A DNA stretch of 56,342 nt, counting the filler, from Sphacelaria rigidula (Eukaryota): the NCBI GenBank assembly GCA_964200075.2. It is 4 parts of 4 records of this genome, joined end to end, with 100 filler letters (N's around TTAATTAATTAA, not from the genome) between each part and the next. Parts side by side here need not be neighbours in the genome. Positions count along the whole stretch, not along the records: positions 1 to 14,017 come from CAXNAA020002512.1; positions 14,118 to 28,128 come from CAXNAA020002513.1; positions 28,229 to 42,235 come from CAXNAA020002514.1; positions 42,336 to 56,342 come from CAXNAA020002515.1. One strand, 5' to 3'. Positions within the stretch are counted from its first letter, which is position 1; every line of letters begins with the position of its first letter. Shown one piece after another: positions 1,053-56,198 of this stretch. The translations under genes were made by a program, and so were the position numbers. The notes below the pieces were generated by a model. It had not been told where the DNA came from, made no database searches, and worked only from the letters and a program-made list of their open reading frames with translations.

Positions 1053-1912
1053 ATATTTGCTTCTTCTCCTTGCCCGCTCTAGGATGATCTCGGATGCCGG
1101 CCACCCTCACACATGTATACACACGAGCGCACGGTAGCGACAGCCGGCAGCCAAACTTGCTCGGACTAGTGGTACAGTAGGCACTCGAGGCCCACGACAC
1201 ACAACATGATCCTATAACCGTAATCATGGTAAGTTGTGCGAGGGGCCCCACAACGGGAAATGGCTGCACCACCGCCTATACACTGTACCACCTCTACGTA
1301 ATCAAATGTAATTACCGTGAGATTAATACACGTGCGGTGCAGTGCAGAAACTACTATCGCCATCATCCAGCGATCAGGGGGTACTCCCCCCCCCCCCCAT
1401 AGCCTCATAGAATCGGGTCCCCCTCCTCCCCCCCTCCTTCAACCCCAAAATGAGGTGTTTGCGGCCTGGGGGGGGGTGTACTCATGATCATGCTTGCCAT
1501 AGTCATCAGACCATTGACCTCGCATCCCTACAAAGCCGGGACGGAGCACGCCGGGTTTTCGCCGGACCAGGCTCCAGGTGTTTGCGGCCTGGGGGGCGGT
1601 TTTGTAGCCATTTCCCGATATGGGACCCCCTGTTTTTGAAGAAGTTTATCAAGAAACACTGACAAAAATCGAAAAGTCTGGTGAGCTTTGCGAGGTTCGT
1701 ATATTTGCTTCTGATCCTTGCCCGCTCTACGATGACCTCGGATGCCGGCCACCCTCACGCACATGTATACACACGAGCGCACAGTAGCGACAGCCGGCAG
1801 CCAAAGTAGCGACTTTATCTTACGCTTCGCCAAACTTGCTCGGACTACTGGTAGGTACTCGAGGCCCACGACACGGAACATGATCCCATAAACGTAATCA
1901 TGGTAAGTGGTG
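1053..1912. repeat. Two direct copies of a ~190-210 bp repeat (1053-1238 and 1701-1912)
   Basis: atatttgcttct...ggatgccggccaccctcac...gtagcgacagccggcagccaaa...cgtaatcatggtaagt in both; copy 2 has an extra ~28 bp bounded by gccaaa microhomology. Confidence 0.85.
1474..1575 (-). mobile_element. 5'-truncated LINE 3' end (family B, GCEVNGLMTMASMIMST) with 21-bp TSD
   Basis: TSD aggtgtttgcggcctgggggg at 1453-1473 and 1576-1596; element ends ...CATGAGTACA next to a C-run; same end at 55822-55908. Confidence 0.8.
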
Positions 1913-2199
1913 AACTTGGGGGGGCGGCGTGTCCACCATCTCATCGGTCTCCACACCAAGGGCCTCTGAAGACGATAGCTGAGCGCACCCGCCAACGCCT
2001 CGGCAATAGACTAGGTAGGGGACATCAGGCTACCCCTCCCCCTCAAAAACTCGAATTGTTAATTTTAAGCACCAAGAAAGCGGTTCGTGAAAACTCCCAG
2101 TAGTTGTCGCCGAGAGCGCTGCTTGACACTGAAGAGCTGATTTGTGCATCACCCCTTGTACTGGTTAAGTATAGGCGCTTAGTTCGCCGCCACACTTCG

Positions 2200-2540
2200 T
2201 GCAACGATCGAAAGATTCTTCGCATTAATGCACCGCTATACATTGAGCAGGGTATGCAAGTACGTCGCATATAATGCCATGCATTCCTAACACGTTCTGC
2301 CCATCAATACATTGAATTCGGGTGAAGGGAATCAACCCGCTGGGATTTCAAATAATCGTACGGTGGTGTTTTTTCTGTTTCAGAATGTATGTTCAACGAC
2401 TATAATACCTCGTCGAAATGTTGACCCCTTGACCGCCAGGGTTGGCAACCAGGGTCACGCAGTAACTTTTCGCGTGAGAGTAGAAGCCGATTCTATACAC
2501 GGCTAAAAAGCTGGCTTTTAATCAAAATGTATACTCTCAA
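2200..2540. repeat. Diverged dispersed repeat; inverted homologue at ~41250-41580
   Basis: aaccagggtcacgcagtaacttttcgcgtga...acggctaaaaagctg matches the reverse complement of 41280-41347. Confidence 0.65.
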
Positions 2541-2584
2541 TGTGGCGAGAATGTTGTTTCACCTGTCCATGTAAAAACATACCA

Positions 2585-2784
2585 AGGGCAGGTCGAGTAG
2601 AGTATACTCAATTGTGGGAGATTTTGAAAGTCGTACTTGAAGTACACAACTTGGGGGTAGGGTTTACGGACCTATTTACAGTTATTTTTTGGGTACGACT
2701 CGTAACACTCTACCCTAAATTGAGTACCTCAAGAACGTCTTTCAAAACATCCCGCAATTCAGTATACTCTACTCGACCTGCCCT
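2585..2784. mobile_element. 200-bp foldback MITE, possibly PIF/Harbinger type
   Basis: TIR agggcaggtcgagtagagtatact / agtatactctactcgacctgccct, arms pair imperfectly for ~85 bp; flanks cca/tca suggest a 3-bp TSD. Confidence 0.8.
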
Positions 2785-3139
2785 TCAAACATACGTCGTA
2801 CAACAGCCGGTCAATGAGATAAGCAGTATAGCCCAACGATACGGTTCGTCCTTAGATAAAACGTTTCCTTTTTAAACGAGAAAAGAAGCGAAAATGACAC
2901 CGATTTTACAAACAGACAGTCAGCGCCGGAGGTATCCGTTAGTGAAATCGGCATTATACTCACTTGAGAAGCTACTACGTGACCCAGACTACCAACCCTG
3001 GCGATCAAATGGTTAGCATTCCGAAGAACTAGTCGTTGGATACATTATCTGAAAGCAAACAGACATCAAGATACGATTCTTTGAAGTCGCGACGGGTCGA
3101 TACCCTCCACTCGCGTTCATCATATTAGTTGTAAGAATA

Positions 3140-5770
3140 TTTTTGGAATACATGCCATTATTCGCGACATACAGAGACACCCGGAATGATGATGGTAGAC
3201 GCATACTGAAATGCGCAGCGGAACATGAAATGGCCATCATCAACACATGTTTTTCGCACGCCAACTCGTGGGGAAAGCTCGACTACATACACGTGTGCGG
3301 AGCCGAAGGTCGAACACCGGTGGCCCCTGGACTACATCTAGTACGCCAGCAACTCTGCCTATTCATCCGAAATGTCACTGTGCACTCCGAGATGAAATCG
3401 GACCATCGACTGGCCTCAGCCCCCATCCGTCTCCTTGCATGGAGCACACCCAACTGCCGACCGAAACCGGGAGGCGGGTTCTGGGGAGTGCGTTTCGATC
3501 GCAAAACCCTCGTATCCGACCGACGCTGCAGAGCGACTGTCTCACAGGCCTTGTCGCCAAGCTCCCGAATGCCACCAATTCCACCGCAGTAATGGACGTC
3601 AACGCCATGGCATCCACTTCGGCACCCTGGGACAAACGGTCGCGGATACACTCCCTTCATACCCGAAGAACTCCATCTAGAGGTTTCAGTGGGACACCTC
3701 AGGCTCAGGATCGCCTCCAAAAGGCGTGGAATCTCAGGGAACGTGTGTGGAAGAAACTACGCGCCAACCCCTAAGACCCTGTCCTAGAGAAGGCGCTGAA
3801 GGTGACGAACAAAGCGTTCAAACGGGTGAAGGATGCTGAGCTGCAGAATCCCGTTCACAAGTTCACAGTCCGGATAGCAGAGTTCGTTCGCGAGAAGCAT
3901 CAAGTAGGGATGTACTAGCACATCAAGCCCATGAAACTGGAAGGGAATGGGGAGTGCGACTCAACCTACATCAGGAGTGCCACTGGCGAGCTGTTGCGGG
4001 ACAAGCAAGCTATCCTTCAACAGTGGAAGAAGGGGTTTAAAACACTTCTGATTGCAACCTCGCCTACGATCGACCACTCTGTCATTGATCTCGTCGAAGA
4101 GATGCCGGAGCACGCACCGCTCGCGACCGAGTCCTAGATGGAAGAAGCGAAGGAAGCGTTGGACAAGCTGGTGAATGGTAAGGCCGTTGAGGCGGGCGCC
4201 ATCTGTGGCGAACTGTTGAAGCTCGGCTGCATCGAAGACTCCACCATCCTGCAGTGCCTCCACAACATCGTGCTCACCGTATGGTGTCAGGTAGTAGTGC
4301 TGCAAGAGTGGGAGCACACCATCATCAAGACACTTTTCAAGAAACAGGATCCGCACGAATGCGGTAATTGCCGTGGTACCTCTCGGGTCCCCCGTGGACA
4401 AGGTGGTGCTTAAGATAGTTGCGACTCGCCTCACTACCTACTGCGAGTGGAAGTAAATCTTCCCATAAGCGCAATGCGATTTCAGACCTAGCCGACCGAC
4501 AGACGACATGATGTACGTTGTTTGCAGGCCCCAAGAACCAGCCAGATAGAGTAGTCTTCCACTGTACAGGTGCGTCATCGACCTCCAAGGTATACGACTC
4601 AGTAGACCGCTCTCATCTCTTGAAAGTATAGCACGCTGCGGTATCCCCGCCAGGATGATTTTCATCATCCACCAGTTCCACGACGGCATGCGGGCATGCG
4701 TACGCCTTGACAGCGGCCAGACATCTGAGTGGTCGATACGGTAACCAGGGCCTCCGCCAAGGCTGTGTTCTTCCCCCGGTTTGTTTAACATCTTTTTCGC
4801 GGCGGTGCTGACGGCAACGTTCGACCACTTCTCGTTTAATAAAGCGGTGTCGCAGGACTTCATCTGTATCACTGAAAGGAGTGGGAAGATCAGGGCCGAG
4901 CTTAGCAAGGTGTTTCGGGCCATGCTATACGCCGACGACGCTGGCATTGCAACGCGGTCTCAAGTAAGCCTGGCGAAGATGATGACGGCCGCCGTCGAAG
5001 TATGTGCAGCATGCGACCTCGTTGTGGGGGTAAAGAAGACAGCTACCATGCACACGTTCTCCCCAAACATGAAGGCGGATATGATCGAGGTGGAGGCTGC
5101 GGTTCGAAGATACAAGCAAGAAAGTCTTTCCTCTACCTCAGCGAAAAACTCAACAGCATCGGTGATGTCACTCCTGTGGTCCATAGCCGCGTTGACCAGG
5201 CCTGGACGTGCTTCTACAAGTACAGCAGAGCGGTATACGACAACCCGTACATCACCCTGGCCACCAAGGCTCATCTCCTGAAGACTGAAGTGATCGTGTT
5301 AACACTACACGGCTGCGTGACCTGGATGATCGCACACGGCAAGTCCGGCGCGTTACCGGAGGCCCATGAAGGATTTCTACTGAGGTGCCTCAATAAGCAT
5401 ACCTAAAGCCGCAGCGTCCCTGACTACCACATGCTGCCATACCACGAAGTCCTCGAAAGAACTACCTGCGAGTGCTAGAAATTGTTCGCTGTGCATGATG
5501 AGACTGATCTTCCTAAACGCCGGCCGTGTTCTTCGCATGAACGACGGACGCCTCCCCAATATCGTCATGCGTGGAGGTATGGTCGGAGGAAAGGCGAAGG
5601 CCGGCCGATCAGCAAGACGACTGCAACACTGTGTCACGGAATACTGTTCTAACTCCGGTATTCACGCGATATCGTAAACGCACGTTGCCCAAGATGTGTC
5701 CGAATGGTGCTAAACCGTAAAGGGGAGGGAGCTGGATGCACACGGCTGCCTGGACCAAAGCACGTCATGC
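3140..5770 (+). mobile_element. Decayed RTE-like non-LTR retrotransposon (AP-endonuclease C-terminus + reverse transcriptase)
   Basis: Fragments RNDDGRRILKCAAEHEMAIINTCF, LDYI, SDHRL; ECGNCRG; FNIFFAAVL; LYADDA; AGRVLRMNDGRLPNIVMRG; many stops and frameshifts. Confidence 0.9.
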
Positions 5771-6484: not shown

Positions 6485-8341
6485 GTGGAGCTCTTCGACG
6501 CGTTGCGCGCCGCCTCCAAATCCGCCAAAGCTCACGCTGATGACAACTGGACCCCGGTGACTTCTCGTCGCCGACGCCACAGACATGATGTTGCCGATCT
6601 TGAGCGCAACCGCCGCGGTGATTCTCACAACCATCACGGAGGATCAAGCTCCTCCTCTGGGAGGGCCCCACCACACCGTGTAAACCGTCCCACCACCAGG
6701 TTGACCAAGACACACCAGGGTGGCGCCTCACCGAGCTCTTCTTCCACCAAGGCCAGGATTCGGTCTGAAACAAACTCGCCTGCGTCGGCTTCTGCCAACC
6801 TAAGTCGCGCTATATCGCGTTCAGCAAATGTTTCGCGTCAGATTTTAGGCCTTTTGGACGACAACTCGGATAAACCGGTATCTTCCACTTCGGCTCGCAC
6901 TCTGGCTGCCTCTGCGGCCGAGCGAGAGCAAGCCGCTGCTAGTGCAGCAGCAGCCGTCGCTCGAGCGAAATCCGCCCGCGCCGCCGCCATCCAGAGAGAA
7001 TACATCCAAATTGACATGAAAAACCTTTAGCATGTGAAACCCATGCCTGCAGCAGACAACGAAGACTCGGGACAATTCACTTCTGCTCTCATCACCTCTG
7101 TACGCCGCACTCTTCGAAACATCCTTGCTCAGCGTTTCGAAAATTCTAACTGGGTTGATGGTTGGTAGACTCCTCTCCACAAAGCTCTGCACCGCGCCAT
7201 CAACCGCCGCTCGCCCGACACTGCCGTTGCTTTGACACAAGTCCTTGATGGTTTCATGGCCGCTATGGATGCAGACCGCACCTCGGGGAAGTCAGGCCCG
7301 GATTTACTCCGTGATCTGGAGCGCCGCTTGACCGGCTACTTCGATCACAGCACTCAAGGGAGTGCTATCCAACGAGTTAGTTATTTTGGTGTCGCAACAG
7401 ATGTCCCCTTCGTGGACTACCTCCGAGAATTGAAGCTTCTCGTTTCCAGTACTATGGGAGTAGGTCGCCAGGCTGGCCCATCAGACGCAATGTGTCAATC
7501 ATATGTGAGGAATAGTGTTTCCGAGCAGTTCCCGGCACTAATGCCGTCGCTGTTTCCAGGTGCTTTAGCCCACCGCGAAGTGCCTTATCCCTCTGTGGAT
7601 GCGATGTGGAGCGCGTTTGTTCATCAAGAAAATAATTTGACGCCAGCCATTCGCGGCGGCAAGTATGCTTGAGCTCCTTCCCAGTCTGCTTCTGAGCCTT
7701 CTTCGACCCCTTCAGGGTCCCGTCACCGGTCTCACACTTGGCTTCGTTCCTCGTGGGTGCCCGCCTCCGTGGCCGGCTCTGTCATGAGCGTTGCAAACAA
7801 TAGAGATCCTTTCAGCGCCAGTCTTGACGGATGGCCGTACTCCGCCGAGACTTGGGATGATGTCTACACTGTATCTACGTCTGCGTTTACTACAGATGAC
7901 CCACATCTGTGGAACCCCCTCCTCTCGTCTGCTGCCAGACACGAGGCCTTCAGCCGCCACGCAAATAGTTGCATCAATTGTAACACCCAGGGGCACAGTA
8001 TGCGCGATTGTACGTGCCCTTGTATCAACTCTTTCGACCTCATGAACTCTGAGCTGCACGACAATGAGCCAGCATGGCGCCGATGGCAGAAATGCATTCG
8101 TGAATACTGCACACCCAACCGTCATTCTCGCCACCCTTTCAACAACCGCGACAACACTCGCTCGAATCGCGACAGTCACCCCAACAACTACGACAATTCT
8201 GGCTCCCGGCGGAGAGAAACTTCTTCTCACCGTCACCGGAATTCCGCCGATAGACACCAGCGCACGGGGCCGAATCACAATCACTCGAACCCCAACGCCA
8301 GAAACCCTGGTTCCTTCATGACTAACCGTACCGATCCATGA
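6485..8341 (+). pseudogene. gag: Gypsy gag (interrupted)
   Basis: ORF pieces 6485-7030, 7232-7672 and 7757-8341 with zinc knuckle CINCNTQGHSMRDC (C-X2-C-X4-H-X4-C). Confidence 0.8.
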
Positions 8342-9357
8342 CATGCCGACGCCGGCGTTTTTACGTCTTCGGCGCCGCTGATAGCACACACGAAGACTAT
8401 TTCACACCAACCGCGGAACGAGTGACAAACCTTCCTCGCTCAACCTCCCCGGCACTGTGCAGGAGTACTAATGACGGCCGCTCATATCGACCCCCGTCTT
8501 CACCTCTTCGCACACAGCGTAACAGTTGCGTTGACTCACAACTTAGCCCTACCCTCGGCTCTGGACTTGGCCCTCCGGAACTGAGCGTAAATCTGAGGTG
8601 TGGAAACACCAACCGTCTGTCTCTGAGGCAAAGGCTTCCCTCAGCGACCGCACGCACAGGCAATGGTGTAATTCATTCGACTGGTTCAAGTATCACTGGT
8701 CAGAATTTGACCGCTTCGGACCAGGTAACATCCACCCCGGTTGAACGAGTTTATCCTTCGCGTTCATTACACCATGCGAAGCTACCCCTGAATGGTTCCC
8801 ACATAAACCATCCTACTATACCTTCGGCTATGACTCCTTAGCCAAGCATGCCTGCGGACTGTCCACAAGCTTCGCCCGAGCATGCCCCAATGCTGACCCC
8901 ATCCACTCAACTGGACGCAGTTGAGTTTTCCCCAAACACATCGGAAGTTCCCCGCCCTTTGCAACGGCGAGGGAGGAAGCCCCGTGAACATGCCCCCACT
9001 GAAGCGCGCGCATCAACACGTATACCTCCATCGAGTGGAAATCTCGACCTCACTCTCTCCAAAATGCGACGACTTTGAGCTCGATGAATTTATCAAGTGT
9101 ACTAGAAGAATCCAAATCAGATATTTGGGATTTTTTACCTCTTCTGCGGACTACACCGAACAAGATGGATCTACTTTAGACGTTGATCCCTGCCTTCCCA
9201 ACACGATCATATATGGAATTGCTAATGACCAACCGAGCTGTGCTCACTCTGGGGACTACACATCATCCATCAAACTTTCTGGTGAGAAAGTTAACCCCCG
9301 GCGGATCACCCGCCCTCCGTTTTCGCCGTCAGCACTACTGATTCCGATCAATTTACC

Positions 9358-14117: not shown

Positions 14118-14173
14118 GGCGCTCATTACTTTCTTTCCGTAGCTCATTACATTTCTTCCATACATTACACAAG
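14118..14173 (-). mobile_element. Fragment of LINE family A 3' region (LCNVWKK...NER)
   Basis: ggcgctcattactttc(t/c)ttccgta also at 52086-52109; abuts a G-run. Confidence 0.6.

Positions 14174-14469: not shown

Positions 14470-14532
<63 letters not shown>
14470..14532. repeat. (CT)n microsatellite
   Basis: Direct read. Confidence 0.95.
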
Positions 14533-14536
<4 letters not shown>

Positions 14537-40523: not shown

Positions 40524-42335
40524 CTATCGGGTGTTTTTGTCGAGTGAAGTCAATCGCGTAGCGCCGTTAGTGGCAGGGGGAAAGCTTAAGCGTATTTTGT
40601 GAAGACTGTGGCCTGCGGTATGCGAAGGGGTTGGTCGCAGTAGGCTAACGCAAGTTTTTACCACACCATCCGCGCGTGCTCATTGCAAGCAACTACAGTA
40701 GCACCCGATAATATCTGAGTGATCATGACAGGGATATACAAGAGACGGTGATACTCGCGGTGAAGTTGGAGCTTCTTCATGATAGATGTATGCGATGTCC
40801 ATTCATCCTCGATACTACTGTAGCGCCGGGGGTGTAGCATGGACGATTGCCCCGCGTTATCACTGAAAATACTGGCTACATGTCACTACCGAGTCAGGCA
40901 GCGCTGTTGGTTGTTTATTGCTCATAGCGGGCAAGACACCTGAAACGAAGTGGAATACCCTGGAACGCCAGCCACCGGAGTGTCATAGCATCCACGCCAG
41001 AGCATGGCAGAGATAAGCTACATATCGCCACGGGAGTACGCCGGAAGTTTTTGTGAAGTCCGTAAGATCACGTACGAATGTAGTTTAGGTCCTGATATTT
41101 CATTGGCGCACCGAACTAAAAAAACTGTACGACGTGCGCAGCTGGTGTCAATTCGAGGTACACCACAGTAGCGGGCAGTTCTACCAGCCATATTTGGGAT
41201 ACAAATCATGCAAACTAGATATCGATGCAAATGACTGCAGCTTTTTCGTGAGGTTGAAAGTACAGGGTTCGATTGACAATCAGCTTTTTAGCCGTTCGTG
41301 GAATGGACATCATTTTCACGTGGAACGTTACTGCGTGATCCTGGTTTCTAACCTGACGATCAAAGGGCAAACATTTTGACGAGTTAGTCGTTGGATGTAT
41401 ACGCCGGAAGCGAAAAAACGCCGATATATAGCTGTTTGGAATCGCGACGGGTTCATGACCTACAATCGCACTTGATGTATCGATCGGAAGAATATTGTTG
41501 GAACACCTGGTGTTACGTGCGACATGTAGGCGTGACCTGCCAACCTCACAGCGGCGCAATAATGAGAGGAATTTTTTGATGGCTGATACGATCATTCTCC
41601 ATCTTTTGATTCCTAGTTCAACTCAACCGGTCGTTTCCTATTGTCAATTGTTAGTGTTTCATTGATTGATTGAGACACATAAAAACAGTGTGTCTCTAGT
41701 AGAAGCTCACTCCCGATAGAAATCTGTATTATACTCTTGATCTCACGAAACCTTGTGAGAATTACAGCAGTGTTACTAGTACAAATCAAGGGCTCTATTT
41801 TTGCACTAACTTACACAGTTCTTTTCCGATGTGGAAATTACAGCGCAGATAACCAAACGCTACTAATTAGTAGACACAAGTCAAGAGCACCCCCTGGGCT
41901 GCAGGCTTTAGCGTAATGATGGGAACAAGGTCGCGGTTGGTACATACGGCTGGATGGGACGCTCTGACTCAAGTAGTGCGTGGGGGTTCCTTGCTGCATG
42001 GAAACGACATGCGGGAGTGACACCAAAAAAAAAGTAGAAGATGTTGAAGGATCCTTTAACCCCTAGACAGCAAGCGTCGCCTCGGTACAGTTTCACAAGG
42101 TGACCATCCGGAGACATTCGGGGGTTTCCAATAGCGGAGGGGTGTGGCTTTTGATGGGGGAGGGGGGGGGGGGGGGACTTTTTCGTTGCTTGCCTTAGTC
42201 GGGTGGCTATTGAATACGCCCCCCTTTCCAGACGGNNNNNNNNNNNNNNNNNNNNNNNNNNNNNNNNNNNNNNNNNNNNTTAATTAATTAANNNNNNNNN
42301 NNNNNNNNNNNNNNNNNNNNNNNNNNNNNNNNNNN

Positions 42336-42400
42336 TTCCGCTCTGGGATGCGTGGTCCATGGTCAGACGACTAAGGCAAGCAACAAATGAGTACGCCCCA
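42336..42400 (+). mobile_element. LINE family A 3' end next to a C-run
   Basis: gggatgcgtggtc...gactaaggcaagcaacaaatgagtacg followed by poly-C. Confidence 0.75.
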
Positions 42401-42714
42401 CCCCCCCCCCCCACCTCCCCCGCTTCACTACTTTCCACTTCAATATTCAGAAATAAGCCAGATTAGCTCTCGAAAGAGATGAAGAGAGAGTCGGTAAGGA
42501 AGAACGGATGGAGAAAATGGAGCGGACGGGTAAAGTACTCATAGTGGTAGTATTCAGAGTCCCTACTAGGGGCCATACTACGAGAATAGAGTTCGAGAGG
42601 AAATGCGACGAAGTTGGACTCTACTGTTTGGACAACACGAAATGTAGAAGGGCACGGAGAACAGTTCCGAGTCACACCAAAACAGAGAGCGAGCAAAGAG
42701 TGGGGGGAGGGGGG

Positions 42715-42780
42715 CATATTCATTTGTTGCTTGCCTTAGTCGTTTGACCATTGACCACGCATCCATTTCGAGACGGAGCA
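42715..42780 (-). mobile_element. LINE family A 3' end with ~18-bp TSD
   Basis: gagcaaagagt(a)gggggga at 42691-42708 and 42776-42794. Confidence 0.8.
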
Positions 42781-43149
42781 AAGAGTAGGGGGGAAGAGAC
42801 AAAAGTAAGTGTCGGCATGGGTTAGAAAGGTAGAATAGGATAGGGAGTTTGTATAGCCATTGGGACAATGAATGTGAGACGTAGCCCTTATGTAGATGGA
42901 GGAAAGGGGAAGCAAGAACAAGTACATGCCTAGAAGGGGAAGGAGAGGGGAAAGAGCGGCCGGCCCAGAGCAAGCAAACAAGGATGAAACCGGAAACGGA
43001 AAGCAAAATCAAGTAAAGGACAGGGGAAGTAATAACGACGGATAGAGAACAATCGAGAAAATGAGACTGAATAATGATTCGAAAAGGAGGTTGAGATGAG
43101 GATTGTGTAATGTGTGTGGATTCGTCCCGGAAAGCGCAAAGAAAAAGAG

Positions 43150-43482
43150 ACGACCGAACACGTAATTAAGCGCAACCTAGATATATTGGGGATTCAAGAG
43201 TCATGGGAGAAAGAGGGAGCGGAAATAGGATGCAAAGTTGGAGAGTACGCATGGATTGGGAAAAAGCGGAAGGGACAGAAACACAAGGACAGGGGAGCGG
43301 GGGGAGTAGGATTCTTCGTCAAAGACTACATGTGTGGCGTAATAGAAGTGACCGGAGACACAAAAATTGACGAGAGCATGCGGAGAAGAGTAACAGGAGG
43401 GCGAGGGACGGAAGGGTTTGTCGTAGGCAAAAGCTATATGCCCCCAGCCCCCAGGATCTCAGGGTACGGTAGAAAACAGTAG
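43150..43482 (+). pseudogene. LINE AP-endonuclease N-terminal fragment
   Basis: NLDILGIQESW...GEYAWIG...GAGGVGFFVK...YMPP, the canonical APE motifs. Confidence 0.85.
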
Positions 43483-44692
43483 TGTTCACAACTTGGTCGA
43501 CATACAGAATATTCTCGAAAATATGTGGTGTCAACATGTTCAAAGTTTCTTGCGGAAATTTATGATGTTGAGCATCGCGCTTCAGCAACCGTTTCACCAG
43601 CTGTTTCAGCCAGTTCCCCTTTCAGCGGCCGTTTCAGTCAGTGCCACGGGCGACACTCCGGAACGAATTGCACCGCTTTTCAGGAAAAGCTACTCGTACT
43701 ACACAGGACTGGCACACGAACTCCCACATACACGAAAGACACCGCACGGCCTCCCTGTTGCTACTGGATGTGCTGAGTTTGCTGCAATGTATACACTATG
43801 TGGGGCACAACCCGAGTATTTACTTGGTTGAGAGCTGTGTTGTGTTGTGTGGGGGCAGGGTCAACATTTTGTCGCACTACTCTGGTACGTGGAAGGTTCT
43901 TTCGCTTTTACGCCCACTGATTTAGCCCGATGTAAGACGATAACTGCGAGATGCAGATGATCACGCTTGTGAACCTGTTGTGCGGCTGTTTGACTGGTGA
44001 AGCTCGGGTGCTGCCGTCTTCGTGTTACGTTTAGCACACTGGGTACGTCCCATATGGTGTTGATACCGACTATGGCCTGCCCTCTTTTTTCTCTCGCTGG
44101 TGTATAACTCATGTTTCTGTACGCGCGATCGGAAAAACCCGTCGCGCAAAAAGCAAGAAATGGAGTGCGTAGCTCACACATACCCAAATTCTGAGGGCAC
44201 TGTTCACGAGCACCTCCTAGACGTGAGTTCGCAACCCTCAAGTAGACGCTGATATATCTGCATACGTCGGATAGCTCATAAGCTAACCGAAATTACAAAT
44301 CGAAGAGGACACTCGAATCTCTTGTGAAGAAACACAGAGTACGTGACAGCAGGGTCCGAGAAGGCCAAGCGCTACCATTGCGCCACTGCGTCAAGAAGTG
44401 TAGGGACCAAATTTGATAAGGGGGCAGAAACAAACTAGTACATAATTCGGATCAGTACACGAATAGATAATATTCCGGTGGCTCATGAGCTGTCCGGCAT
44501 GTGAAAATCTTCGTTTGTGTGGATTGCGTGGTCATCTGGTATTTGTTGTTGTTGAGGATTTTCGATTCACTTTAATTTTGTAGCATTTTTACTCCGCTCG
44601 AAGTTTTCAGGATTATAGATTCGTTCTCATTTGCTGCTATGTATATGTTCATCTTCGCATCTTCAGCCATATTCCGTATATTGACGATGTAC

Positions 44693-48539: not shown

Positions 48540-50080
48540 ACCAGGCTGCCGATCCCGCTTCTACGCTTATCGGCGAAAGCTTATGACACCAGAACGCAAA
48601 TGGCATCGTTATCCCGCACATATGGCTTCTACGCGTCCGATTTCCATCCAACTTCTTTCTGCAACATCCCTAAGGTCAGTTCAACTGTGGACAAGTGTGT
48701 GGCGCTACCAATCCACAGAGAGTGCAGCGCAAACTCTGCCGACGTGAGCTCTGCCAACGCCACCGCTTATCGCAACGCAGCCATCGCATCATACCGACTC
48801 CATACCAAAAATCCCCCGTTTTTCCAGATATAGCGTACCTCATCAGCGGGGCATCTACAGGTAACGATTCATCAACTAACAAGAGCTTCAGCACAGTGCG
48901 ACCATTACGCCCCCGTCTCGAAATGGCAACGGATATCGCAAGCGAACACGCGTCACGATCGAGTTCGAATTGACCCCTTCGGGCTCCTGGAGACGCACGT
49001 CCACCCAATGTGCCGTACCCCAATCACGTCGACGCAACTGCATCCTTCCCCGATAAAATGCCACGTCACTTCTACGCACAAGTTTACTGGGTGATAAGAA
49101 CGAAACAGGATGGGCATGCATCTCGTGTGGTCTCGTCAAAAGGAAAAGGAGGCATATGAACCACAACACGTGGCCACCCGGGCCCCACGCAAGGGACAGA
49201 CGTTCCTCATCCAACAGCACCGACGATGCACCGGCTGCCGAAGTCGTTGCTGTGTTCCCATCACAACGTGGCTACGCTTCAATCCCATCAACGCATCCAT
49301 AATGAACGAATATCCTCACTGAGTTCTCGCATACGACCGCGCATCGGCATTTCGGACAAGCCCGAACCCAAAGTACCTGAACACAGATGCCTCCCCTTTG
49401 TCCTGTTGTCCTGCATGTCTCACTGAATATCGGGACGGTAGGATGAGACCTTAGCGCAAACGCAATCCATGGGTAACCGCGAAATTGCTTCAGCCACATC
49501 ATTGAAAAGTCCTGAAACATGCTTCGTCGCAACACGAAGCCCGCGTCAATTTCGAGCACACCAAGCATGCGCATCACAGCACGCGGCTCCTTACCCCCTC
49601 TGCGCTTATCCATACCCACATTATGGCGTACGAGTTGTCTCCGTACAACCGCACACAACCCGCTCATAACCGTGGACGTCTCCTGCAGAGAAGAAATATT
49701 ACTGGCGCCAACATTACCGTACCCAAAGGTTCTAGTACAGTGATCGAAATATCATCATCCGATTGCACAGTTTGGCCTTTACAATGGGATTGTTCCTCAG
49801 TGGTCAAGTCATACCGCCGCCACATGCCCAACTGCAAATAATGGTCCCTGATAGCCGCGTCCGACTCATTCGGAGGCAAGCACAACGTGGGCGGGCGCAA
49901 AACTAAGCGTTATTCCGGGGATAATATTGCTGTTCCACGCCGCGACAGTACATAGCCAACGACCCAACGCCACACGCTCGATTACCGTGAGCTTTCGGGA
50001 ACAACACCACCACCAACGCCACACGTCTAAATCATCGTGAAACGCCGGGCCCAAAACCACCACCCGCAACGTCGTCGCCG
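48540..50080 (-). mobile_element. DIRS-type (tyrosine recombinase) retrotransposon relic: RNase H + YR
   Basis: Minus-strand pieces LGPAFHDDLDVWRW, LGMWRRYDLT, RGGKEPRAVMRMLGVLE (RNase H); GLKRSHVVMGTQQRLRQP, AWGPGGHVLW, RRSDVAF, EFALHSLWIGSATHL...GWKSDA*KPYVR (YR). Confidence 0.85.
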
Positions 50081-50620
50081 CCCTCTCGAAAAAAACAAAA
50101 CAAAACATGCCCCGCTACAACACGGGACGGTGAGAGGGGCGGCGCGCCCCAGCCGAGGCGAGCATGCGGTGAACAAAATGTTCTCCCGGGCGTGGAACAA
50201 ACGAGACGTGCAGCCTTTCGTATACCGAGAATGATGATGCATCTCCGCGCCACGACAATCCGTCGCCGACCAGCCAACGCCGCACGTCTAAATTATTGTG
50301 AAATTCCGTGACTCAAAACCACCACCCGCGAGTTCGTCGCCGCCCTCTTCAAGAGCATCCCTGTCACAACACGGGACGAGGAGGGGCGGCGCACCCCAGC
50401 CGATGCGGGCTTAATACCACCACCCGCGAAATCGACGCCGCCCTCTCAGAAAATCATCTCCCGTCACTACACAAGACGGGGGTGGACGGCGCACCCCAGC
50501 CGATGCGTACTCAATACTATCGCTCGCGACTTCGCCGCCCTCCTTGAAATCATCCCCCGTCACAACACTGGATGGGGAAGGGCGGCACGCAACAGTCGAT
50601 GCAAGCATGCAGTGAGCAAA
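50010..50620. repeat. Degenerate tandem duplications derived from the DIRS pol segment
   Basis: ccaacgcc.cacgtctaaat...caaaaccaccacccgc twice; acaacacgggacg...ggcggcgc.ccccagccga about four times. Confidence 0.75.
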
Positions 50621-51960
50621 GGACGTACCCGAACGTTAAATAAACGAAACTTGCAGTAGAAAACCAGTCAATGACAAAATGTCTCTCTGATGCACAATTG
50701 CGGTCTCGAGGCTACTGCAACCATGGCTTTGCAATCTGTTACTTTTCCCCCTCTAAATGGGAAACAGAGAGGGAGTCAGAATCAATTGCCCAACCCAGTA
50801 CTTCCACTCGTTTATACATTCCAGGCCGACGTTTTTTTGCAACAAACAACGGTGGGTCATTCGGCCCACGCTCACCCAGCAAACGAATATCACCAGAAGT
50901 TAATTAACCCTTGGGAACCTTCCCCTTCCGTCCCCGGGTCAGACGCCTCAATATTTCAAGCACTGATTACGAAGAAAAGGTGGGAACAGAAAAGACCGAT
51001 GGCAACCATTTTCAAGGTGGAAGGCCACAGAAGAATCCACCAGCATACGTCAGGCGCGCACTAGAGGTGTCACCCCCGTGCAGTCACATGAGGCTGTCCA
51101 GTGAGGGACGCAACGGGTCAAGTTTCTTGAACTTTGTGTGCACAGCAAAAATCAGCGCTTGGATACCTGAAGTCTTTACAAACAAATCAGCACCGCCTGT
51201 CTATGTTCTATACACGGAGTCAAGTGCGGCACCGGGGCACATTTTTATTCAGGCCTGAAAAATACGCTCGGGATATAGTTTGCGTGAAAGCTGTAAGTAC
51301 TCCACATGTCGGTGAAAAAAAAAAGCACCCTGACATCCACAATTTTCCACTGCCAGCACCGCTTCGTCGCAAACATGAGTTGCCTTCTGGGAAAAAACAA
51401 ACAAACGAACTTCCACCGGTTTACTGTCATCAACATAGATGCACATGAAAGAGGGAGTGCCAACCCTGCCACCACCTCGGAAGCGCCCTACCATCCACGG
51501 GCAGAGTGCCAACGCGACCCTGTAGGCGGCGTGCTATCTTGACAGACTGACCTGCACGGCGGCCGATGTCTCTCACCATATGCGAAAAAAAAGTGATGTT
51601 GGTGAACGAACATTTCAAGGCCGTGAAGTCCGGGACCGCTGCCGGTTGATTTGATTTGATTCGATTGCCGCACTTTGATCAACCCTCCAAGGATCCAGCG
51701 GCGGTCATATGATGGACATACCCGAGACAAAACAAAGTTGAAACAGTCGCTGAAGAAAGACAAGAAGGTAGGAATAGAAAAGGTGGAACAGAACAACAGA
51801 GTAGACTAAGATGACTGCGCCACCCGAATTGCAAACACAGGCAACTACAGCCATTTCACCCAACGCACAGGCGAGATACGTGGCGCGTAGCGAGTTCACA
51901 ACACCTGGCAAAGACGCCTCTTTGACATCAAGATTACTGATCACAATGCGTGCTGAGGGG

Positions 51961-52110
51961 GGGCGTACTCATTTGTTGCTTGCCTTAGTCATTTGAACAT
52001 TGACCACGCATCCCTTTCGAGACGGAGCACCNNNNNNNNNNCGGAGCACCGTTCCTACTCCTAATAGAGACACCTCCAACATTCTGGCGCTCATTACTTT
52101 CCTTCCGTAC
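51961..52110 (-). mobile_element. LINE family A 3' end (NERQNVGGVSIRSRNGAPSRKGCVVNxQMTKASNK-stop) with 14-bp TSD
   Basis: tgcgtgctgagggg at 51947-51960 and 52111-52124. Confidence 0.85.
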
Positions 52111-53015
52111 TGCGTGCTGAGGGGCCAAATTTTTACCGCAAGGACACAGTATGTATGAAGACAAACAAGAATCAGACAAAAACAATTCGCGATACTGTTA
52201 CCAACTGCTAGTCGCACCACATCCGTCTCCCGGATCTCGTAAGCCTCGACTTCAATCCACACGCCGTTATTGCCCTGGTACCTTATTGCTTCTCTCACAC
52301 TGAACTGCCTCACCTGACTCATCACACAGGTAATCATGCAGGTCAACGTGTTCTGAAGTGGCTTGTAGATACTGTAACCACTATAAAAAATTGGGGAAGT
52401 TCTTCCCGCTCCTGCACAAAGGATTGTTTTATCCCGAACACAGAATCGCGCCTTTTCGGGTCCAGTGATACATGTTGACCGGTCGGCTGCATAGGGGACC
52501 CGAGAACTGAAGAGACAAATGAGTAGCATTTAGCAAAAAAACGCCGAAGAACGCAGAAAAAAAACGCGGAAAAAGAATAGGACAGGGTCAAGGGCCTGTA
52601 CAATGAAATCGATCCCAACGTATGGGACAGAGGAAGTACATGTTGACGACACGGTAGTTCGACACTAGGGATGGCAAACCGGGGGCGACCGTGGAGACTA
52701 GAGCGACAGCTTCTCTCTCGACAGTGGCGACGACGGTATCCCGTGGGAAAAGTTCAGCAAGTGCTCGTTTTTAGGCATTCTGAATGGAATAGGAGGCAAT
52801 CTCTCTATTTCCACAGCTGCTTTGGCCTTCATGCATTCATCAGCGGGTCCTCGTATCTCAACGATGAAGCCCACCCTGGCCTGCACGTGGAACACAAGGG
52901 AGAGTGCTGTAGCGTGGTGGCAAAGGAAGTAACAGCCATCGCAGGCATAGAAAGCACTATAAAAATCGTACACCGCCGTAATCTTCATCAGTTGCGATAT
53001 TTTCCTGGCGAAAGA

Positions 53016-53370
53016 GACGCTTTCTGCGATACCCCCCCCCCCCCCCCAAAAAAAAGGGGCCGGGTTGGGGGGGCCCAGGCCACCCGGTTACCGGCAAAAA
53101 TAAAGGGGGNNNNNNNNNNGCTTTTGGAGAAACCCCCCCCCCCCGAAACAAACGTGGCTGGTTCGGGGAGGCAAGGTCTACAGGTAGACCGAAAAAAAAA
53201 AAACAGAGCAAAGCGAACAGCTGGGAATTTGCACGCTTGGGTTCGTTTTCGCCAATGTCGCCCATATGAGGTGCTTCATGCAGCCTGAAATCAAACATCG
53301 GGCGCTGTATGGCCATTTTCGTCGTGACAATTTTCGGCTGGCTTTTGGGGGGGCTATCGCAGAAAGTGCC
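53016..53370 (-). mobile_element. GACAC-TIR MITE copy, 4-bp TSD AAGA (contains N gap)
   Basis: TIRs gacgctttctgcgatacccc / gggggctatcgcagaaagtgcc; aaga at 53012-53015 and 53371-53374. Confidence 0.88.
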
Positions 53371-54212
53371 AAGACCGCTCATCTGTGTCAAACGCCTCAC
53401 GAGCGAAGTCGAATCTGTCGTCGTTGCGGTGTTCGAAACACGTGCGTGGTGCACTCGCTGTCCGTTCGCCGACCATGGTGCGTCAGTACGCTACCCTCAT
53501 CACCACCAAACCGACGTCACGGGTGTGTATACACACCCTCTTCTCTCTTCGTGCCTGGGAACGCCCCCCCGTTACATCCTTACATACGACGGCAGGCAAC
53601 AACAGTTCACGAGTAAAGAAAATGAAACCATGTAATACACGGTGGACTTTTTTCTTTGCCTCCTGCTGTTCGCATAATATCATCAACAAATGAAAAATTC
53701 CCAAAATATCCCAAAACATCCTGCTGCACGCGTTGATAAATCATCACGTTGCGATTCATGTGCAGACATCACCGTAGCCTGCCAAATACGCAAACCCCGA
53801 ACAAAACTCTCAGTTTTCTCCGCACTTTCTGTTCACCTTACCTTGCAGAGTACTTCTCGGCCCTCGCTCCTCCTCTTGTTGCGGACCGCATCGCGTACAT
53901 GACGTTCACCATCGTGAAAATCATGAACCCACCACCCAGGAAAAAATGATCGCCATTCTTACGCACGACATCGAATCCCCTTTCCTCAATTTCGCCACCA
54001 ATGGAACCCCACGAGCGCCAGCCTCACGATACATGTTTACGATTTTGTTCACGTCATCCTGATTCAAAACTCCCGTGTCCGCCACTCCAGCAGCCAATCC
54101 CATAAAATCTTCTTCGGCGATGTCGACTGCAGTGGGTTGTTGCGTCGATGTATTGCAAGCAGCGACGCCGTGCTCACAAGACCACAGTGCGCTGCCCCCT
54201 CCTTGCTCGTTT

Positions 54213-54280
54213 GGTGCTCCGTCTCGAAAGGGATGCGTGGTCAATGGTCAAATGACTAAGGCAAGCAACAAATGAGTACG
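54213..54280 (+). mobile_element. LINE family A 3' end
   Basis: ggtgctccgtctcgaaagggatgcgtggtcaatggtcaaatgactaaggcaagcaacaaatgagtacg. Confidence 0.8.
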
Positions 54281-54796
54281 TGATCTTCTGCATTTTGATC
54301 ATGAAAAGCTGCTGTCAAAATTTCAGCGTCCAACTCCTGATATCGCGCCGTGCGTCGCCTGAGCGAGCGAGATTCACACGTACTCTTGGCTGGCCCAGCT
54401 CGTAATATCAGCAAGGATTGGTGCTGGAACGGATGCACGTGTACGTCTAATGTCTACGCGAACAACCTTGACATTGTCCGATACTTCCAAGAGCCGAGGA
54501 CAAACCAAGAACATCGTGCTCAACTTTTCATGACTGCTGCGGCTTGAAAAAATGATCTGTTCAGTTTCAGGGGAGCTGGTCACGCTTATGAGTAGTTGTG
54601 CTGTAGGTCTTTTGTCATGGTTACTCGTCATGCGCCGTCTGTAGTCGTATTTTGTCTTTTGTTTCCCCTGCAAGTAAACGTGATATACTAATAGCCCCTG
54701 ATTCATTCCAAGAATTCTGACGACATAGATTGATATCACAGGGCGAACACAAATAAAAAACGCGAAACTTTCACATCCTTCTTCCGGGGCGGGGGA

Positions 54797-54861
54797 GTGC
54801 TCGCTTGTTGCTTGCCTTAGTCGTTTGACCGTTGACCACGCATCCCTTTCGAGATGGAGCA
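54797..54861 (-). mobile_element. LINE family A 3' end next to a G-run
   Basis: Reverse complement of the same ~65-bp terminus, preceded by ggggcggggg. Confidence 0.78.
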
Positions 54862-54862
54862 T

Positions 54863-55055
54863 CTGAGGGGGGGTATACCCCTCCCTCACGAGACTGCAAC
54901 TTAACCCTGGTTCGTTTCACAACTCCTCTACCTAAACCTTCTCCTGTAAATGGGCGCGCGCGGGGGGGTATAGGTCGGTATTTACAATTTTCTCTTGCCA
55001 TAGTGGTGTATTTTTCTGTCTATATCATTAACCCTTAGATAGCGACCCCCCCTCA
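54863..55055. mobile_element. Possible small MITE
   Basis: Perfect 12-bp inverted ends ctgagggggggt / accccccctcag; no clear TSD. Confidence 0.4.
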
Positions 55056-55821
55056 GCTGGACTGAGATGGGCTTTGCCACATTCGGGATTCAGAACAGCT
55101 CTTTTCTCGCTACACAAAACGCCTTTTTCATGAACAGTGCATGTTGGGCATCTATATAGCAAATAGTCCCGCAAAAACCCTGACCGGTTTTGACCCTGTC
55201 GTCAATTTCGTGCAGAGTCAGTGTGTGCGCGCTATATGTCTCCGCTGGATACAGCGGCAAAAAGCAGTCAGCGTGCCATCGCACCCCACTGAACACAGTC
55301 TGCCGCATGCTGTTGAAGTATGTGCTTAGTATTCCACGACGATACTACAGGCAGTTTGAAAATATGCTGGCGACACATGAGGGCTCAGGGAGGCGGCATA
55401 GACTACGAGCAGAGCACAGGACATATTGTTTGTGCCCACGTAATCTATGGTTCACCCTTAGACGGCGAGGAGAGTAGGTAATCCGTTGAATGGCATAATA
55501 TTTCACTTGAAGAAAATATGCATGCACTAGATGGACTACCTCTCGCGGTCTAAGGGCTAAGCTGTCGTGATCAAAATGAGAAATACAAATAGACAGCGAT
55601 GTAGTCCACCTGTAGCCCACCTGCACGGGAACGAAGTGGCCATTTTGATAGCGGTGATTGGTCAGAATGATCACTCCGCTCCTCTAGGGCCTCTTTCCTG
55701 GGTTAGAATTTTCTGTGAGAAACTTCCAAACACACATGGTTTGACGTGGTGAGCTTTTCTGCTGTTCTGCGCGAAGGCCCCCACCCCCCTGTCAAAAACC
55801 ACCTTCCCTCCCCCCCCCTCC

Positions 55822-55908
55822 CGAGGTCACTATGGCATGCATGATCATGAGTACACCCCTCCCGAGGTCAATGGTCTGACGACCATGGCATGCATGATCA
55901 TGAGTACA
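55822..55908 (+). mobile_element. Two tandem LINE family B 3' ends in a C-run
   Basis: cgaggtca...atggcatgcatgatcatgagtacacccc twice. Confidence 0.75.
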
Positions 55909-56198
55909 CCCCCCCCCGCCCCCTGGAAACGCCCGGATGTCCCCGGACTATCAGCCTGTGAAACTGTTCCGAGGCGACGCTCGTTGTCTAAGGGTCGTAA
56001 AAGAGTCAATTTTCGTTTCACACAAAATTGAGAAGGGAAGCGTTCGATGCCATGTTGTACATACTGTATGCAGATAGATGTCAGCTTCTCCCACAAAGTT
56101 TACCACGAATGACTTCATCATCTACCTCCCCCACGCGAGTGTGATTTGAACCTCGGTTCAATCCACTACTCTTGTACATACCCAATCCTTGCGCTTTT

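What the first reader, a model, noticed from the sequence alone, without database searches (positions are those of the whole stretch)
1453..55915. Two related tail-less LINE families that target poly-G/poly-C runs
Seen: about ten short 3'-end copies. Family A (...GCVVNGQMTKASNK*-GTACG) lies at 14118, ~42180, 42336, 42715, 51961, 54213 and 54797. Family B (...GCEVNGLMTMASMI-ATGAGTACA) lies at 1474 and twice at 55822-55908. Both end in a GAGTAC(A/G)-type terminus with no poly-A or microsatellite tail and almost no 3' UTR. All copies with a visible 3' end except 54213 run straight into a C-run. Three copies have clear TSDs that end in the G-run: 21 bp (1453/1576), ~18 bp (42691/42776) and 14 bp (51947/52111). 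Established: variable 5' truncation with 10-20 bp TSDs is the signature of target-primed reverse transcription, and most LINEs have A-rich tails and nick T/A-rich sites. Inference: a non-LTR clade whose endonuclease nicks G-tracts and whose RNA may end in C residues that anneal to the G-rich primer. That would be a GC mirror of L1 poly-A/poly-T priming. I do not know of a description of it, but cannot verify novelty.
Basis: partly seen in the sequence, partly recalled or inferred. Interest (0 to 1): 0.78.

Follow-up and report, generated by a model that had tools for sequence, protein, structure and literature searches.

The report
Algal LINE with oligo-C tail
The short repeats are the cut-off tail ends of a very abundant jumping gene (a LINE retrotransposon) of an alga that ends in a run of C instead of the usual run of A and lands next to runs of C/G, a rarely seen variation on how such elements start copying themselves.

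Summary
The window, which is four unlinked ~14-kb contigs joined by linkers, carries nine copies of a conserved 3' end. Eight of the nine run straight into a C-run of at least 4. Three have clear 14-21 bp target-site duplications (TSDs).

Four contigs from elsewhere carry the same end as the last 60 nt of a 1,253-1,426-aa ORF. That ORF holds an AP-type endonuclease, a reverse transcriptase and a CCHC knuckle. Its stop codon lies 5 nt before the terminus, which is followed by C8-C13. Family A is therefore a true LINE.

In all three clean TSDs the upstream copy already starts with C4-C6, while the 3' junction has 3-7 more C. So the target carried a G-run at the nick and the element also brings C residues. 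It is oligo-C-tailed, not tail-less.

Family B shares only the last ~75 nt and has an in-frame stop, so it may be non-autonomous. The nearest named relatives are Ectocarpus (brown alga) proteins. LINEs there are annotated mostly as RTE-X, but clade membership was not tested here.

I found no description of C-tail/G-tract priming. Supplements that might hold one were closed.

The parts
1477..1575 (-). Family B copy, 99 nt, 5'-truncated. It ends ...GAGTACA and then C9 (G9 at 1468-1476 on the + strand).
1453..1473 (.). TSD of the family B copy, 21 bp. Its partner is 1576-1596. The 3'-junction copy carries 3 extra G (1474-1476).
14118..14172 (-). Upstream part of a family A copy, cut by the linker. 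It includes a 24-nt tandem duplication. Its 5' junction abuts C14 (G14 at 14173-14186).
   Evidence: (loose ends at 52109)
42177..42235 (-). Degenerate family A 3' end, cut by the linker at its 5' side and followed by C15 (G15 at 42162-42176).
42336..42395 (+). Family A 3' end, with its 5' side cut by the linker. It is followed by an interrupted C-run at 42396-42424.
42425..43510 (+). Long fragment of the same LINE: a short leader, the start codon region, the N-terminal domain and the start of the endonuclease. It begins right after the C-run of the preceding copy (head-to-tail). It lacks the ~0.75-kb leader seen in L013/L007 and breaks off inside the endonuclease.
42715..42781 (-). Family A copy, ~67 nt, nested inside the long LINE fragment at an internal G6 run. 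TSDs are 42691-42707 and 42776-42793. Paralogous LINE copies L013 and L007 lack the insert.
51964..52110 (-). Family A copy, 147 nt including an N10 gap. TSDs are 51947-51960 and 52111-52124 (14 bp). The 3' junction has 3 extra G (51961-51963).
54213..54280 (+). Family A copy, 68 nt and 100% identical to L001 and L013. No C-run follows and no TSD was found. A C5 run lies 13 nt upstream of its 5' junction.
54796..54861 (-). Older family A copy (about 89% identity to the loci) with an altered terminus, followed by C5GC4. There is a possible decayed ~12-bp TSD ending in the G-run.
55820..55908 (+). Two tandem family B 3' ends, both truncated at the same point. The pair is preceded by C9 and followed by C9GC5.

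Best explanation
The repeats are 5'-truncated copies of a very abundant non-LTR retrotransposon (LINE) of an alga. Its nearest named relatives are in the brown alga Ectocarpus.

Anatomy. The full element is at least 5 kb. It has a leader of about 0.75 kb or more and one ORF of about 1,380-1,430 aa. The ORF holds an N-terminal RRM-like domain, an AP-type endonuclease, a reverse transcriptase (FADD) and a CCHC-like knuckle. Its stop codon lies 5 nt before the terminus ...GAGTACG. A run of 7-15 C follows.

Proposed mechanism.
1. The transcript carries some C residues at its 3' end. Most simply these come from read-through into the C-run behind the source copy.
2. The protein recognises the last ~75 nt of the RNA.
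3. The endonuclease nicks the target strand at the 3' edge of a G-run.
4. The terminal G residues pair with the oligo-C end of the RNA, and reverse transcription starts at ...GAGTACG.
5. A second nick 12-21 nt away gives the TSD.
6. Most copies are cut short at the 5' side.

Each insertion recreates, and tends to lengthen, a C/G run. That run is then a target for the next copy, which gives head-to-tail and nested copies.

Shown: LINE identity, the constant 3' end, the C-run after it, variable 5' ends, TSDs that start in a pre-existing C-run, and extra C at the 3' junction.
Inferred: the RNA's C end, read-through as its source, the pairing step, and which protein part reads the RNA.
For: LINE identity.
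- An 18-mer from the window matched 12 metagenome stretches, and 3 of the 12 are true copies (L001, L002, L007). A 26-mer found 1 of 1 (L013).
- In all four loci the window's 3' end is the end of a long ORF: 1,426 aa in L007, 1,382 aa in L013, 1,253 aa and open-ended in L001.
- These ORFs match Exo_endo_phos (E 6.7e-13) and RVT_1 (E 1.1e-30).
- The terminus is followed by C8, C12, C10 and C13, and then by four unrelated flanks.

Target.
- The three clean TSDs begin, in element orientation, with C6, C6 and C4 in the upstream copy.
- All 8 visible short-copy 5' junctions have a C-run of at least 4 ending 0-15 nt upstream. The background is 7.4%.

Tail.
- The 3' junction runs are 3, 7 and 3 nt longer than the upstream TSD copies.
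- In the nested copy, the extra block is G6 plus A on the + strand. This fits copying of an interrupted C-run from a source locus.

Insertion proven. LINE paralogues L013 and L007 lack the 42715-42781 insert.

3' recognition module.
- L001 and L007 are 97% identical in the last 75 nt, against 60-89% in every other 75-nt window.
- Family B shares just this block.

Abundance. Bins holding copies have about 1.5 million summed word depth, against about 70-90 in unique bins of run X1. This is not a copy count.

Self-targeting. One 3' end plus C-run is followed directly by the 5' part of another copy, and a third copy is nested at a G-run inside that one.

C/G runs of 10 or more: 12 seen against 0.11 expected from composition.
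Against: - Only three clean TSDs and one decayed candidate are available, all from one assembly.
- No TSD could be found for L007 or L013. Their 5' ends run off the contigs.
- One copy (54213-54280) has neither a C-run nor a TSD.
- The 3-7 extra C could come from slippage, from later expansion of the run, or from homopolymer length errors in the assembly.
- No RNA was seen, so the oligo-C end of the transcript and its origin are untested.
- Whether the endonuclease prefers G-tracts, or pairing selects among nicks, cannot be told from sequence.
- No significant RNA fold was found in the last ~100 nt (z from -0.06 to -2.2), so the recognition signal is undefined.
- C/G runs are common in this genome, so part of the association could reflect run-rich neighbourhoods. 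The 7.4% background already includes them.
Confidence: 0.7

Rival explanations
1. The element has no C residues of its own. The endonuclease is strictly specific for G-tracts, and every C at the 3' junction is target sequence. The extra C come from slippage or later expansion.
For: The upstream TSD copies start in C-runs. Homopolymers change length easily. Run lengths vary widely, from 4 to 15.
Against: All three clean TSD pairs differ in the same direction: the 3' junction is longer by 3, 7 and 3. The nested copy has a second complete C6 block separated by one T, which is not a simple slippage product.
Confidence: 0.15
2. The C-run is only a tail, added to or carried by the RNA. Insertion sites are random, and the C-runs in the upstream TSD copies are coincidence.
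For: The four loci from other assemblies all show a C-run after the terminus whatever the flank.
Against: The upstream TSD copies begin with C4-C6 in 3 of 3 clean cases. All 8 visible short-copy 5' junctions have a C-run of at least 4 within 15 nt, against 7.4% background.
Confidence: 0.07
3. Endonuclease-independent capture: cDNA is primed at breaks or stalled forks that arise at G-tracts (structure-prone DNA), not at enzyme-made nicks.
For: G-tracts are fragile in other organisms (recalled background; PMC2211496 seen as a search listing only). The copy at 54213 lacks a TSD.
Against: TSDs of 12-21 bp with a sharply defined 3' end are the pattern of two staggered nicks. The ORF keeps an endonuclease domain that still matches its family model.
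Confidence: 0.05
4. The termini are ends of a DNA transposon or a satellite, or the C-runs are sequencing artefacts.
For: Another repeat in the window does have inverted 26-nt ends that include a C-run (405-430 / 630-655).
Against: The 3' end is the end of a 1,250-1,430-aa endonuclease-RT ORF in four independent contigs. The C-runs are internal to contigs, flanked by unique sequence and TSDs, and recur in five assemblies.
Confidence: 0.01

Closest known systems
RTE-X (and RTE) LINEs of Ectocarpus, with the non-autonomous RTEX-N1_Ec32 (PMC12477816; I read Table 1 and passages of the main text)
   Same: The best named protein matches are Ectocarpus sp. gene products at 55-66% identity. One of them ends in the same ...ASNK peptide. 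The paper reports endonuclease-RT LINEs in thousands of copies and a ~600-bp non-autonomous family that shares only the 3' end with its LINE. That is the pattern family B shows here.
   Different: I could not test which annotated clade these proteins belong to, because no reference sequences were available. Every passage of the main text containing 'poly', 'tail', 'target site' or 'TSD' was seen. None concerns LINE tails or LINE targets. Fig. 1C (terminal motifs) and Supplementary Material 3 (family notes) could not be seen.
L1 / LINE-1 (poly-A tail pairing with the T-rich primer at a TTTT/AA nick; recalled)
   Same: A homopolymer at the RNA 3' end is complementary to a homopolymer at the nicked primer. 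TSDs start in that homopolymer. 5' truncation and an AP-type endonuclease plus RT plus CCHC are shared. Human L1 ORF2p is the best solved-structure match to the RT (E about 3e-22, against 4e-18 for R2).
   Different: The tail is C, not A. It cannot come from ordinary polyadenylation. There is one ORF instead of ORF1 plus ORF2. There is almost no 3' UTR. The last 75 nt are strongly conserved, which points to sequence-specific ('stringent') rather than relaxed recognition.
Simple-repeat-targeting LINEs: Waldo and Mino (R1 clade), Kibi and Koshi (Tx1 group), Dong (R4 clade), and Zorro3 in poly-A tracts (all recalled, not checked here)
   Same: Insertion into a simple repeat, with the element's 3' end continuing into the same repeat. 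Read-through or repeat-ended RNA is thought to pair with the target.
   Different: The target here is a mononucleotide C/G run as short as 4-6 nt, not a di- to tetranucleotide array. Insertions are dispersed. Clade relationships were not tested.
'Stringent-type' LINE/SINE pairs such as UnaL2/UnaSINE1 (review PMC3747384, passages read)
   Same: A conserved 3' block is shared between a LINE and a short partner. The terminal repeat is thought to allow slippage at initiation.
   Different: No stem-loop could be shown here. The conserved block is coding sequence rather than 3' UTR.

Membership tests
Non-LTR retrotransposon (AP-endonuclease type LINE) | AP-type endonuclease domain upstream of a reverse transcriptase in one ORF | tested here: met
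   P0001 matches Exo_endo_phos at residues 235-461 (E 6.7e-13) and RVT_1 at 807-1056 (E 1.1e-30). P0002 gives the same domains.
Non-LTR retrotransposon (AP-endonuclease type LINE) | Constant 3' end with variable 5' truncation | tested here: met
   Nine copies of 26-147 nt share the terminus. The 5' ends fall at at least six different points.
Non-LTR retrotransposon (AP-endonuclease type LINE) | Target-site duplications of variable length | tested here: met
   TSDs of 21, 14 and 12-18 bp, plus one decayed ~12-bp candidate.
Non-LTR retrotransposon (AP-endonuclease type LINE) | No terminal repeats (LTR or TIR) | tested here: met
   L013 and L007 show a leader, one ORF and a C-run, with no repeat of the ends within the contigs. 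The 5' ends run off the contigs.
RTE-X clade | RT groups with RTE-X reference elements in a phylogeny | not testable with these tools
   No named reference LINE sequences could be fetched. The only basis is 55-66% identity to unnamed Ectocarpus proteins, together with that genome's LINE table.
L1 clade | Poly-A tail | tested here: not met
   Eight of 9 window copies and 4 of 4 outside loci end in C-runs. None ends in an A-run.
L1 clade | Separate ORF1 upstream of ORF2 | tested here: not met
   L013rc and L007rc each have only one ORF of 80 aa or more upstream of or overlapping the element. The RRM-like domain is fused to the same ORF.
Simple-repeat-specific LINEs (works-like comparison) | Target repeat identical to the repeat that follows the element's 3' end | tested here: met
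   The upstream TSD copies start with C4-C6, and the 3' ends are followed by C-runs.
Non-autonomous LINE partner / SINE (family B) | Shares only the 3' block with the LINE | tested here: met
   Family B aligns to family A over the last ~75 nt and diverges upstream.
Non-autonomous LINE partner / SINE (family B) | No long ORF; own 5' head (for example a Pol III promoter) | tested here: inconclusive
   There is a TAG two codons before GCEVNG in the window copy and in the loose-end consensus, but another frame is open. No full-length B copy was seen.

The most novel reading that the evidence does not exclude
A widespread clade of algal LINEs, marked by a conserved extreme C-terminal peptide and almost no 3' UTR, primes reverse transcription by pairing an oligo-C RNA end with G-tracts. 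It thereby seeds, lengthens and re-uses poly-C/G tracts across the genome. It would be a self-reinforcing homopolymer niche that works without polyadenylation, and a major source of the structure-prone G/C tracts in these genomes.
Probability: 0.35. Interest if true: 0.7.

Novelty: new variant of a known kind. Interest (0 to 1): 0.55.

Why it matters
LINE initiation is understood mainly from two cases: poly-A/T-rich priming (L1) and site-specific elements. A high-copy family that uses a C/G homopolymer would show that homopolymer pairing at the nick is a general solution, not one tied to polyadenylation.

It would give a natural system for asking how an RNA gains a non-A tail. It would help explain the roughly 100-fold excess of long C/G runs in this genome. 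It would also explain why short-read assemblies of such algae break at these sites: three of the six inner contig ends in this window fall inside copies.

On the practical side, the 75-nt 3' block plus a C-run is a precise marker for annotating this family and its non-autonomous partners.

Tried and rejected
- Whole genome: none is held, so no genome-wide count of copies or empty sites was possible.
- Earlier notes of this scan: four look-ups, nothing found.
- Rfam on the whole window: 0 matches.
- RNA folding of the last ~100 nt of four copies: z from -0.06 to -2.2, no convincing structure.
- Viral contigs: the 18-mer and a protein-based scan both found nothing.
- Sequencing runs: no RNA holder is listed.
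- Laying contigs of four runs. This gave abundance and loose-end extensions. No joint skipping a copy appears among the joints listed, and 1,802 further joints were not shown. So no empty allele was seen and none is excluded.
- TSD search for L007: the 3'-flank words do not recur upstream. The 5' ends of L013 and L007 run off the contigs.
- A tblastn extension beyond the 52110 boundary is weak, gapped similarity and was rejected as spurious.
- Clade assignment. PDB comparison only ranks L1 ORF2p above R2. The protein atlas gave unnamed endonuclease-RT clusters. No phylogeny with named references was possible.
- Literature searches for a C-tailed or G-tract-targeting LINE found none. The library omits most subscription journals and Repbase reports.
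- Fold of the N-terminal domain. The core is confident (block pLDDT 75-93) and has a beta-alpha-beta-beta-alpha-beta order. The best PDB matches are RRM domains but weak, with E 0.017 or higher. It is reported only as RRM-like.
Full report
WHAT THE WINDOW IS
The 56,342-base window is not one locus. It consists of four pieces of 14,017, 14,011, 14,007 and 14,007 bp joined by N44-TTAATTAATTAA-N44 linkers. The near-equal lengths suggest neighbouring contigs of a length-sorted fragmented assembly. Three of the six inner piece ends (14118, 42235, 42336) fall inside copies of the repeat studied here, as expected if the assembly breaks at a high-copy repeat. The DNA is eukaryotic. It holds a decayed Ty3/gypsy element (RT_RNaseH) and an ankyrin-repeat ORF. 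One public run that holds the unique part of the window is labelled an algae metagenome. No whole genome is held.

THE OBSERVATION
A profile built from the last ~70 nt of the repeat finds nine matches in the window and nothing else.
- Family A has six: 42337-42395(+), 42716-42780(-), 51964-52030(-), 54214-54280(+), 54797-54861(-), and a degenerate copy at 42185-42235(-).
- Family B has three: 1478-1543(-), 55829-55854(+) and 55862-55907(+).
Eight of the nine are followed directly by at least four C in element orientation. The exception is 54213-54280.

Three copies have clear target-site duplications:
- 21 bp at 1453-1473 / 1576-1596;
- 14 bp at 51947-51960 / 52111-52124;
- 12-18 bp at 42691-42707 / 42776-42793, where 5-6 nt are also element sequence.
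A fourth, decayed candidate lies around the older copy 54796-54861.

The sequence at 14118-14172 is not a 3' end. It is an upstream part of a family A copy whose 3' part falls in the linker, and its 5' junction abuts C14.

IT IS A LINE
An 18-mer invariant in five window copies matched 12 metagenome stretches. Three of the 12 (L001, L002, L007) are true copies and the other nine are chance matches in unrelated DNA. A 26-mer found one more contig, L013, which is filed under a bacterial bin but is clearly eukaryotic.

In all four loci the window's 3' end is the end of a long ORF: 1,426 aa in L007, 1,382 aa in L013, and 1,253 aa (open at the contig edge) in L001. The ORF has an AP-type endonuclease and a reverse transcriptase. 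A CCHC-like motif lies about 100 aa before the end. The C-terminus is ...GAPSRKGCVVNGQMTKASNK, and the TGA stop is 5 nt before the terminus GAGTACG. Then come C8, C12, C10 and C13, followed by four unrelated flanks.

L013 and L007 also share about 1.1 kb of upstream sequence, the stretch before and across the start of the ORF, at 82% identity. The full element therefore has a leader of roughly 0.75 kb or more and is at least 5 kb long.

ANATOMY BEYOND THE FINDING
The first ~90 residues upstream of the endonuclease are conserved in relatives. They are predicted with good confidence (block pLDDT 75-93) as a beta-alpha-beta-beta-alpha-beta domain. The best solved-structure matches are RRM domains, but only weakly, with E 0.017 and above. 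I call it RRM-like.

The last 75 nt are 97% identical between L001 and L007. Those two elements are otherwise 60-89% identical per 75-nt window. One window copy is 100% identical to L001 and L013 over 68 nt. This extra constraint on top of coding points to a 3' recognition block for the reverse transcriptase. I could not show a fold for it.

Twenty of the 38 best protein hits (P0003-P0040, down to 28% identity) end in a related peptide, (C/R)-V-V-N-G-x-x-A-M-A-x-x. None of the 82 weaker hits does.

TARGET AND TAIL
In element orientation each clean TSD begins with a C-run. The upstream copy is not next to the element's 3' end and so reports the empty site. It has C6, C6 and C4. The copy at the 3' junction has C9, C6-T-C6 and C7, which is 3, 7 and 3 more.

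So the target strand that served as primer ended in a G-run: the nick lies between the last G and a non-G. The element also contributes further C.

All eight visible short-copy 5' junctions have a C-run of at least 4 ending 0-15 nt upstream, although one is the tail of the neighbouring copy. The long LINE fragment at 42425 shows the same. At random positions the figure is 7.4%.

The copy at 42715-42781 is nested in another copy of the same LINE, at a G6 run. LINE paralogues L013 and L007 lack the insert, and at that point they read differently, without the G-run. That is an independent view of an insertion into a G-run.

At 42336-42424, a 3' end, its C-run and the 5' part of the next copy lie head to tail. 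This is expected if C-tails are themselves targets.

C/G runs of 10 or more are about 100-fold over-represented in the window: 12 seen against 0.11 expected.

MECHANISM
The most economical reading is target-primed reverse transcription in which the G-run at the nick pairs with an oligo-C end of the RNA. Ordinary polyadenylation cannot supply C. I therefore propose read-through into the C-run behind the source copy. The interrupted C6-T-C6 at the nested copy fits copying of an interrupted source run.

Whether the endonuclease itself prefers G-tracts, or pairing merely selects among nicks, cannot be decided here. The extra C could also be slippage or later expansion. That rival gets 0.15.

Weaknesses are the small number of TSDs, their origin in a single assembly, the lack of RNA data, and the copy at 54213, which has neither run nor TSD.

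FAMILY B
B shares the last ~75 nt with A at about 80% identity and diverges upstream. In the GCEVNG frame there is a TAG two codons upstream. This is so in the window copy and in the loose-end consensus of hundreds of contigs in four runs (agreement 0.68-0.93). That frame also has no stop before the C-run. B may be a non-autonomous partner that borrows the 3' block, or a LINE read in another frame. No full-length copy was seen.

ABUNDANCE
Bins of the laid stretch that hold copies reach about 1.3-1.5 million summed word depth in run X1. Unique bins reach about 70-160. The tool warns that this is not a copy number. It shows only that the 3' end is extremely repeated in all four runs.

COMPARISON WITH WHAT IS KNOWN
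The best named relatives are gene products of Ectocarpus sp. at 55-66% identity. One of them ends in the same ...ASNK peptide.

The 2025 survey of Ectocarpus transposable elements (PMC12477816; Table 1 and passages read) lists LINE/RTE-X (7 families, 16,418 copies), RTE (3 families), CRE (2) and unknown (3). It also lists a ~600-bp non-autonomous family that shares its 3' end with RTE-X elements. I saw every main-text passage containing 'poly', 'tail', 'target site' or 'TSD', and none concerns LINE tails or LINE targets. Its Fig. 1C and Supplementary Material 3 could not be seen and may record a terminal motif.

I could not place the RT in a named clade. No reference sequences were available, and the PDB only ranks human L1 ORF2p (E about 3e-22) above R2 (4e-18).

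In how it works, the element resembles two known kinds. One is L1, where a homopolymer tail pairs with a homopolymer primer. The other is the simple-repeat-specific LINEs, recalled from memory: Waldo, Mino, Kibi, Koshi, Dong, Zorro3. It differs from them in the base used, in using short mononucleotide runs scattered over the genome, in having a single ORF, and in having virtually no 3' UTR.

Six full-text searches found no description of a C-tailed or G-tract-targeting LINE. The library lacks most subscription journals and Repbase reports.

VERDICT
The element family itself is very probably already annotated in brown algae. The C-tail/G-tract coupling appears to be a new variant of a known mechanism, pending a look at the closed supplements and a genome-wide test.

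Noticed in passing
window 14018-14117, 28129-28228, 42236-42335: The window is four near-equal ~14.0-kb pieces joined by N44-TTAATTAATTAA-N44 linkers. Three of the six inner ends fall inside LINE copies, so distances between pieces mean nothing.
   Followed up: yes
window 405-430 / 630-655; also 1-145, 53136-53375, 56196-56342: A perfect 26-nt inverted repeat (an 18-mer plus C8/C9) flanks a ~200-bp unit that is itself repeated four times. In the laid runs many contigs join the family B end plus C-run (55913-55917) directly to the 18-mer at 56202. This could be a small TIR element whose ends include a C-run, or tiny retro-copies in C-runs. It is unresolved.
   Followed up: partly
window 3182-5719 (+): A second, decayed LINE of a different lineage. 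It is 24-35% identical to the weaker, partly animal hits such as P0078 and P0104, with frameshifts and stops. Its 3' end was not located.
   Followed up: partly
window 7523-14017 (+): Decayed Ty3/gypsy-type element (RT, RNase H, integrase region), 28-60% identical to the gypsy part of the chimeric Ectocarpus gene model P0025. It runs into the linker.
   Followed up: partly
window 1386-1398, 14753-14768, 16224-16235, 28295-28317, 53032-53047: Long C-runs (C12-C23) with no recognisable family A or B end in front of them. Some are preceded by other short motifs, such as ...GGTACT at 1386 or ...TACGAGT at 14753. These might be ends of further families.
   Followed up: no
window 280-330: Degenerate internal telomere-like CCCTAA-type repeats. 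A similar stretch lies at 47498-47597.
   Followed up: no
window 14118-14172 and 52087-52110; loose ends at 52109: This genome's family A carries a ~24-nt tandem duplication just upstream of the conserved 3' block. L001, L002, L007 and L013 do not have it. It shifts the reading frame of the copies seen.
   Followed up: partly
proteins P0003-P0040: A conserved extreme C-terminal peptide, (C/R)VVNGxxAMAxx, occurs in 20 of the 38 best relatives down to 28% identity. It sits within a few codons of the stop, and so of the element's end.
   Followed up: partly
L013 3692-4192 (-) and relatives: An N-terminal RRM-like domain is fused in frame to the endonuclease-RT ORF. L013 and L007 have no ATG at the position where P0003 starts, so the true start of translation is unclear.
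   Followed up: partly
L013 (whole locus): A contig filed under a bacterial metagenome-assembled genome is almost entirely this eukaryotic LINE, so it is likely contamination of the bin.
   Followed up: no
window 50349-50547: Contigs of runs X4 and X5 skip 197 bp here, inside a tandem-repeat region (50009-50602). This is a length polymorphism unrelated to the LINE.
   Followed up: no
window 39082-40566 (-): A 495-aa open frame with ankyrin repeats (Ank_2, E 1.1e-26). It is the clearest host gene candidate in the window.
   Followed up: no
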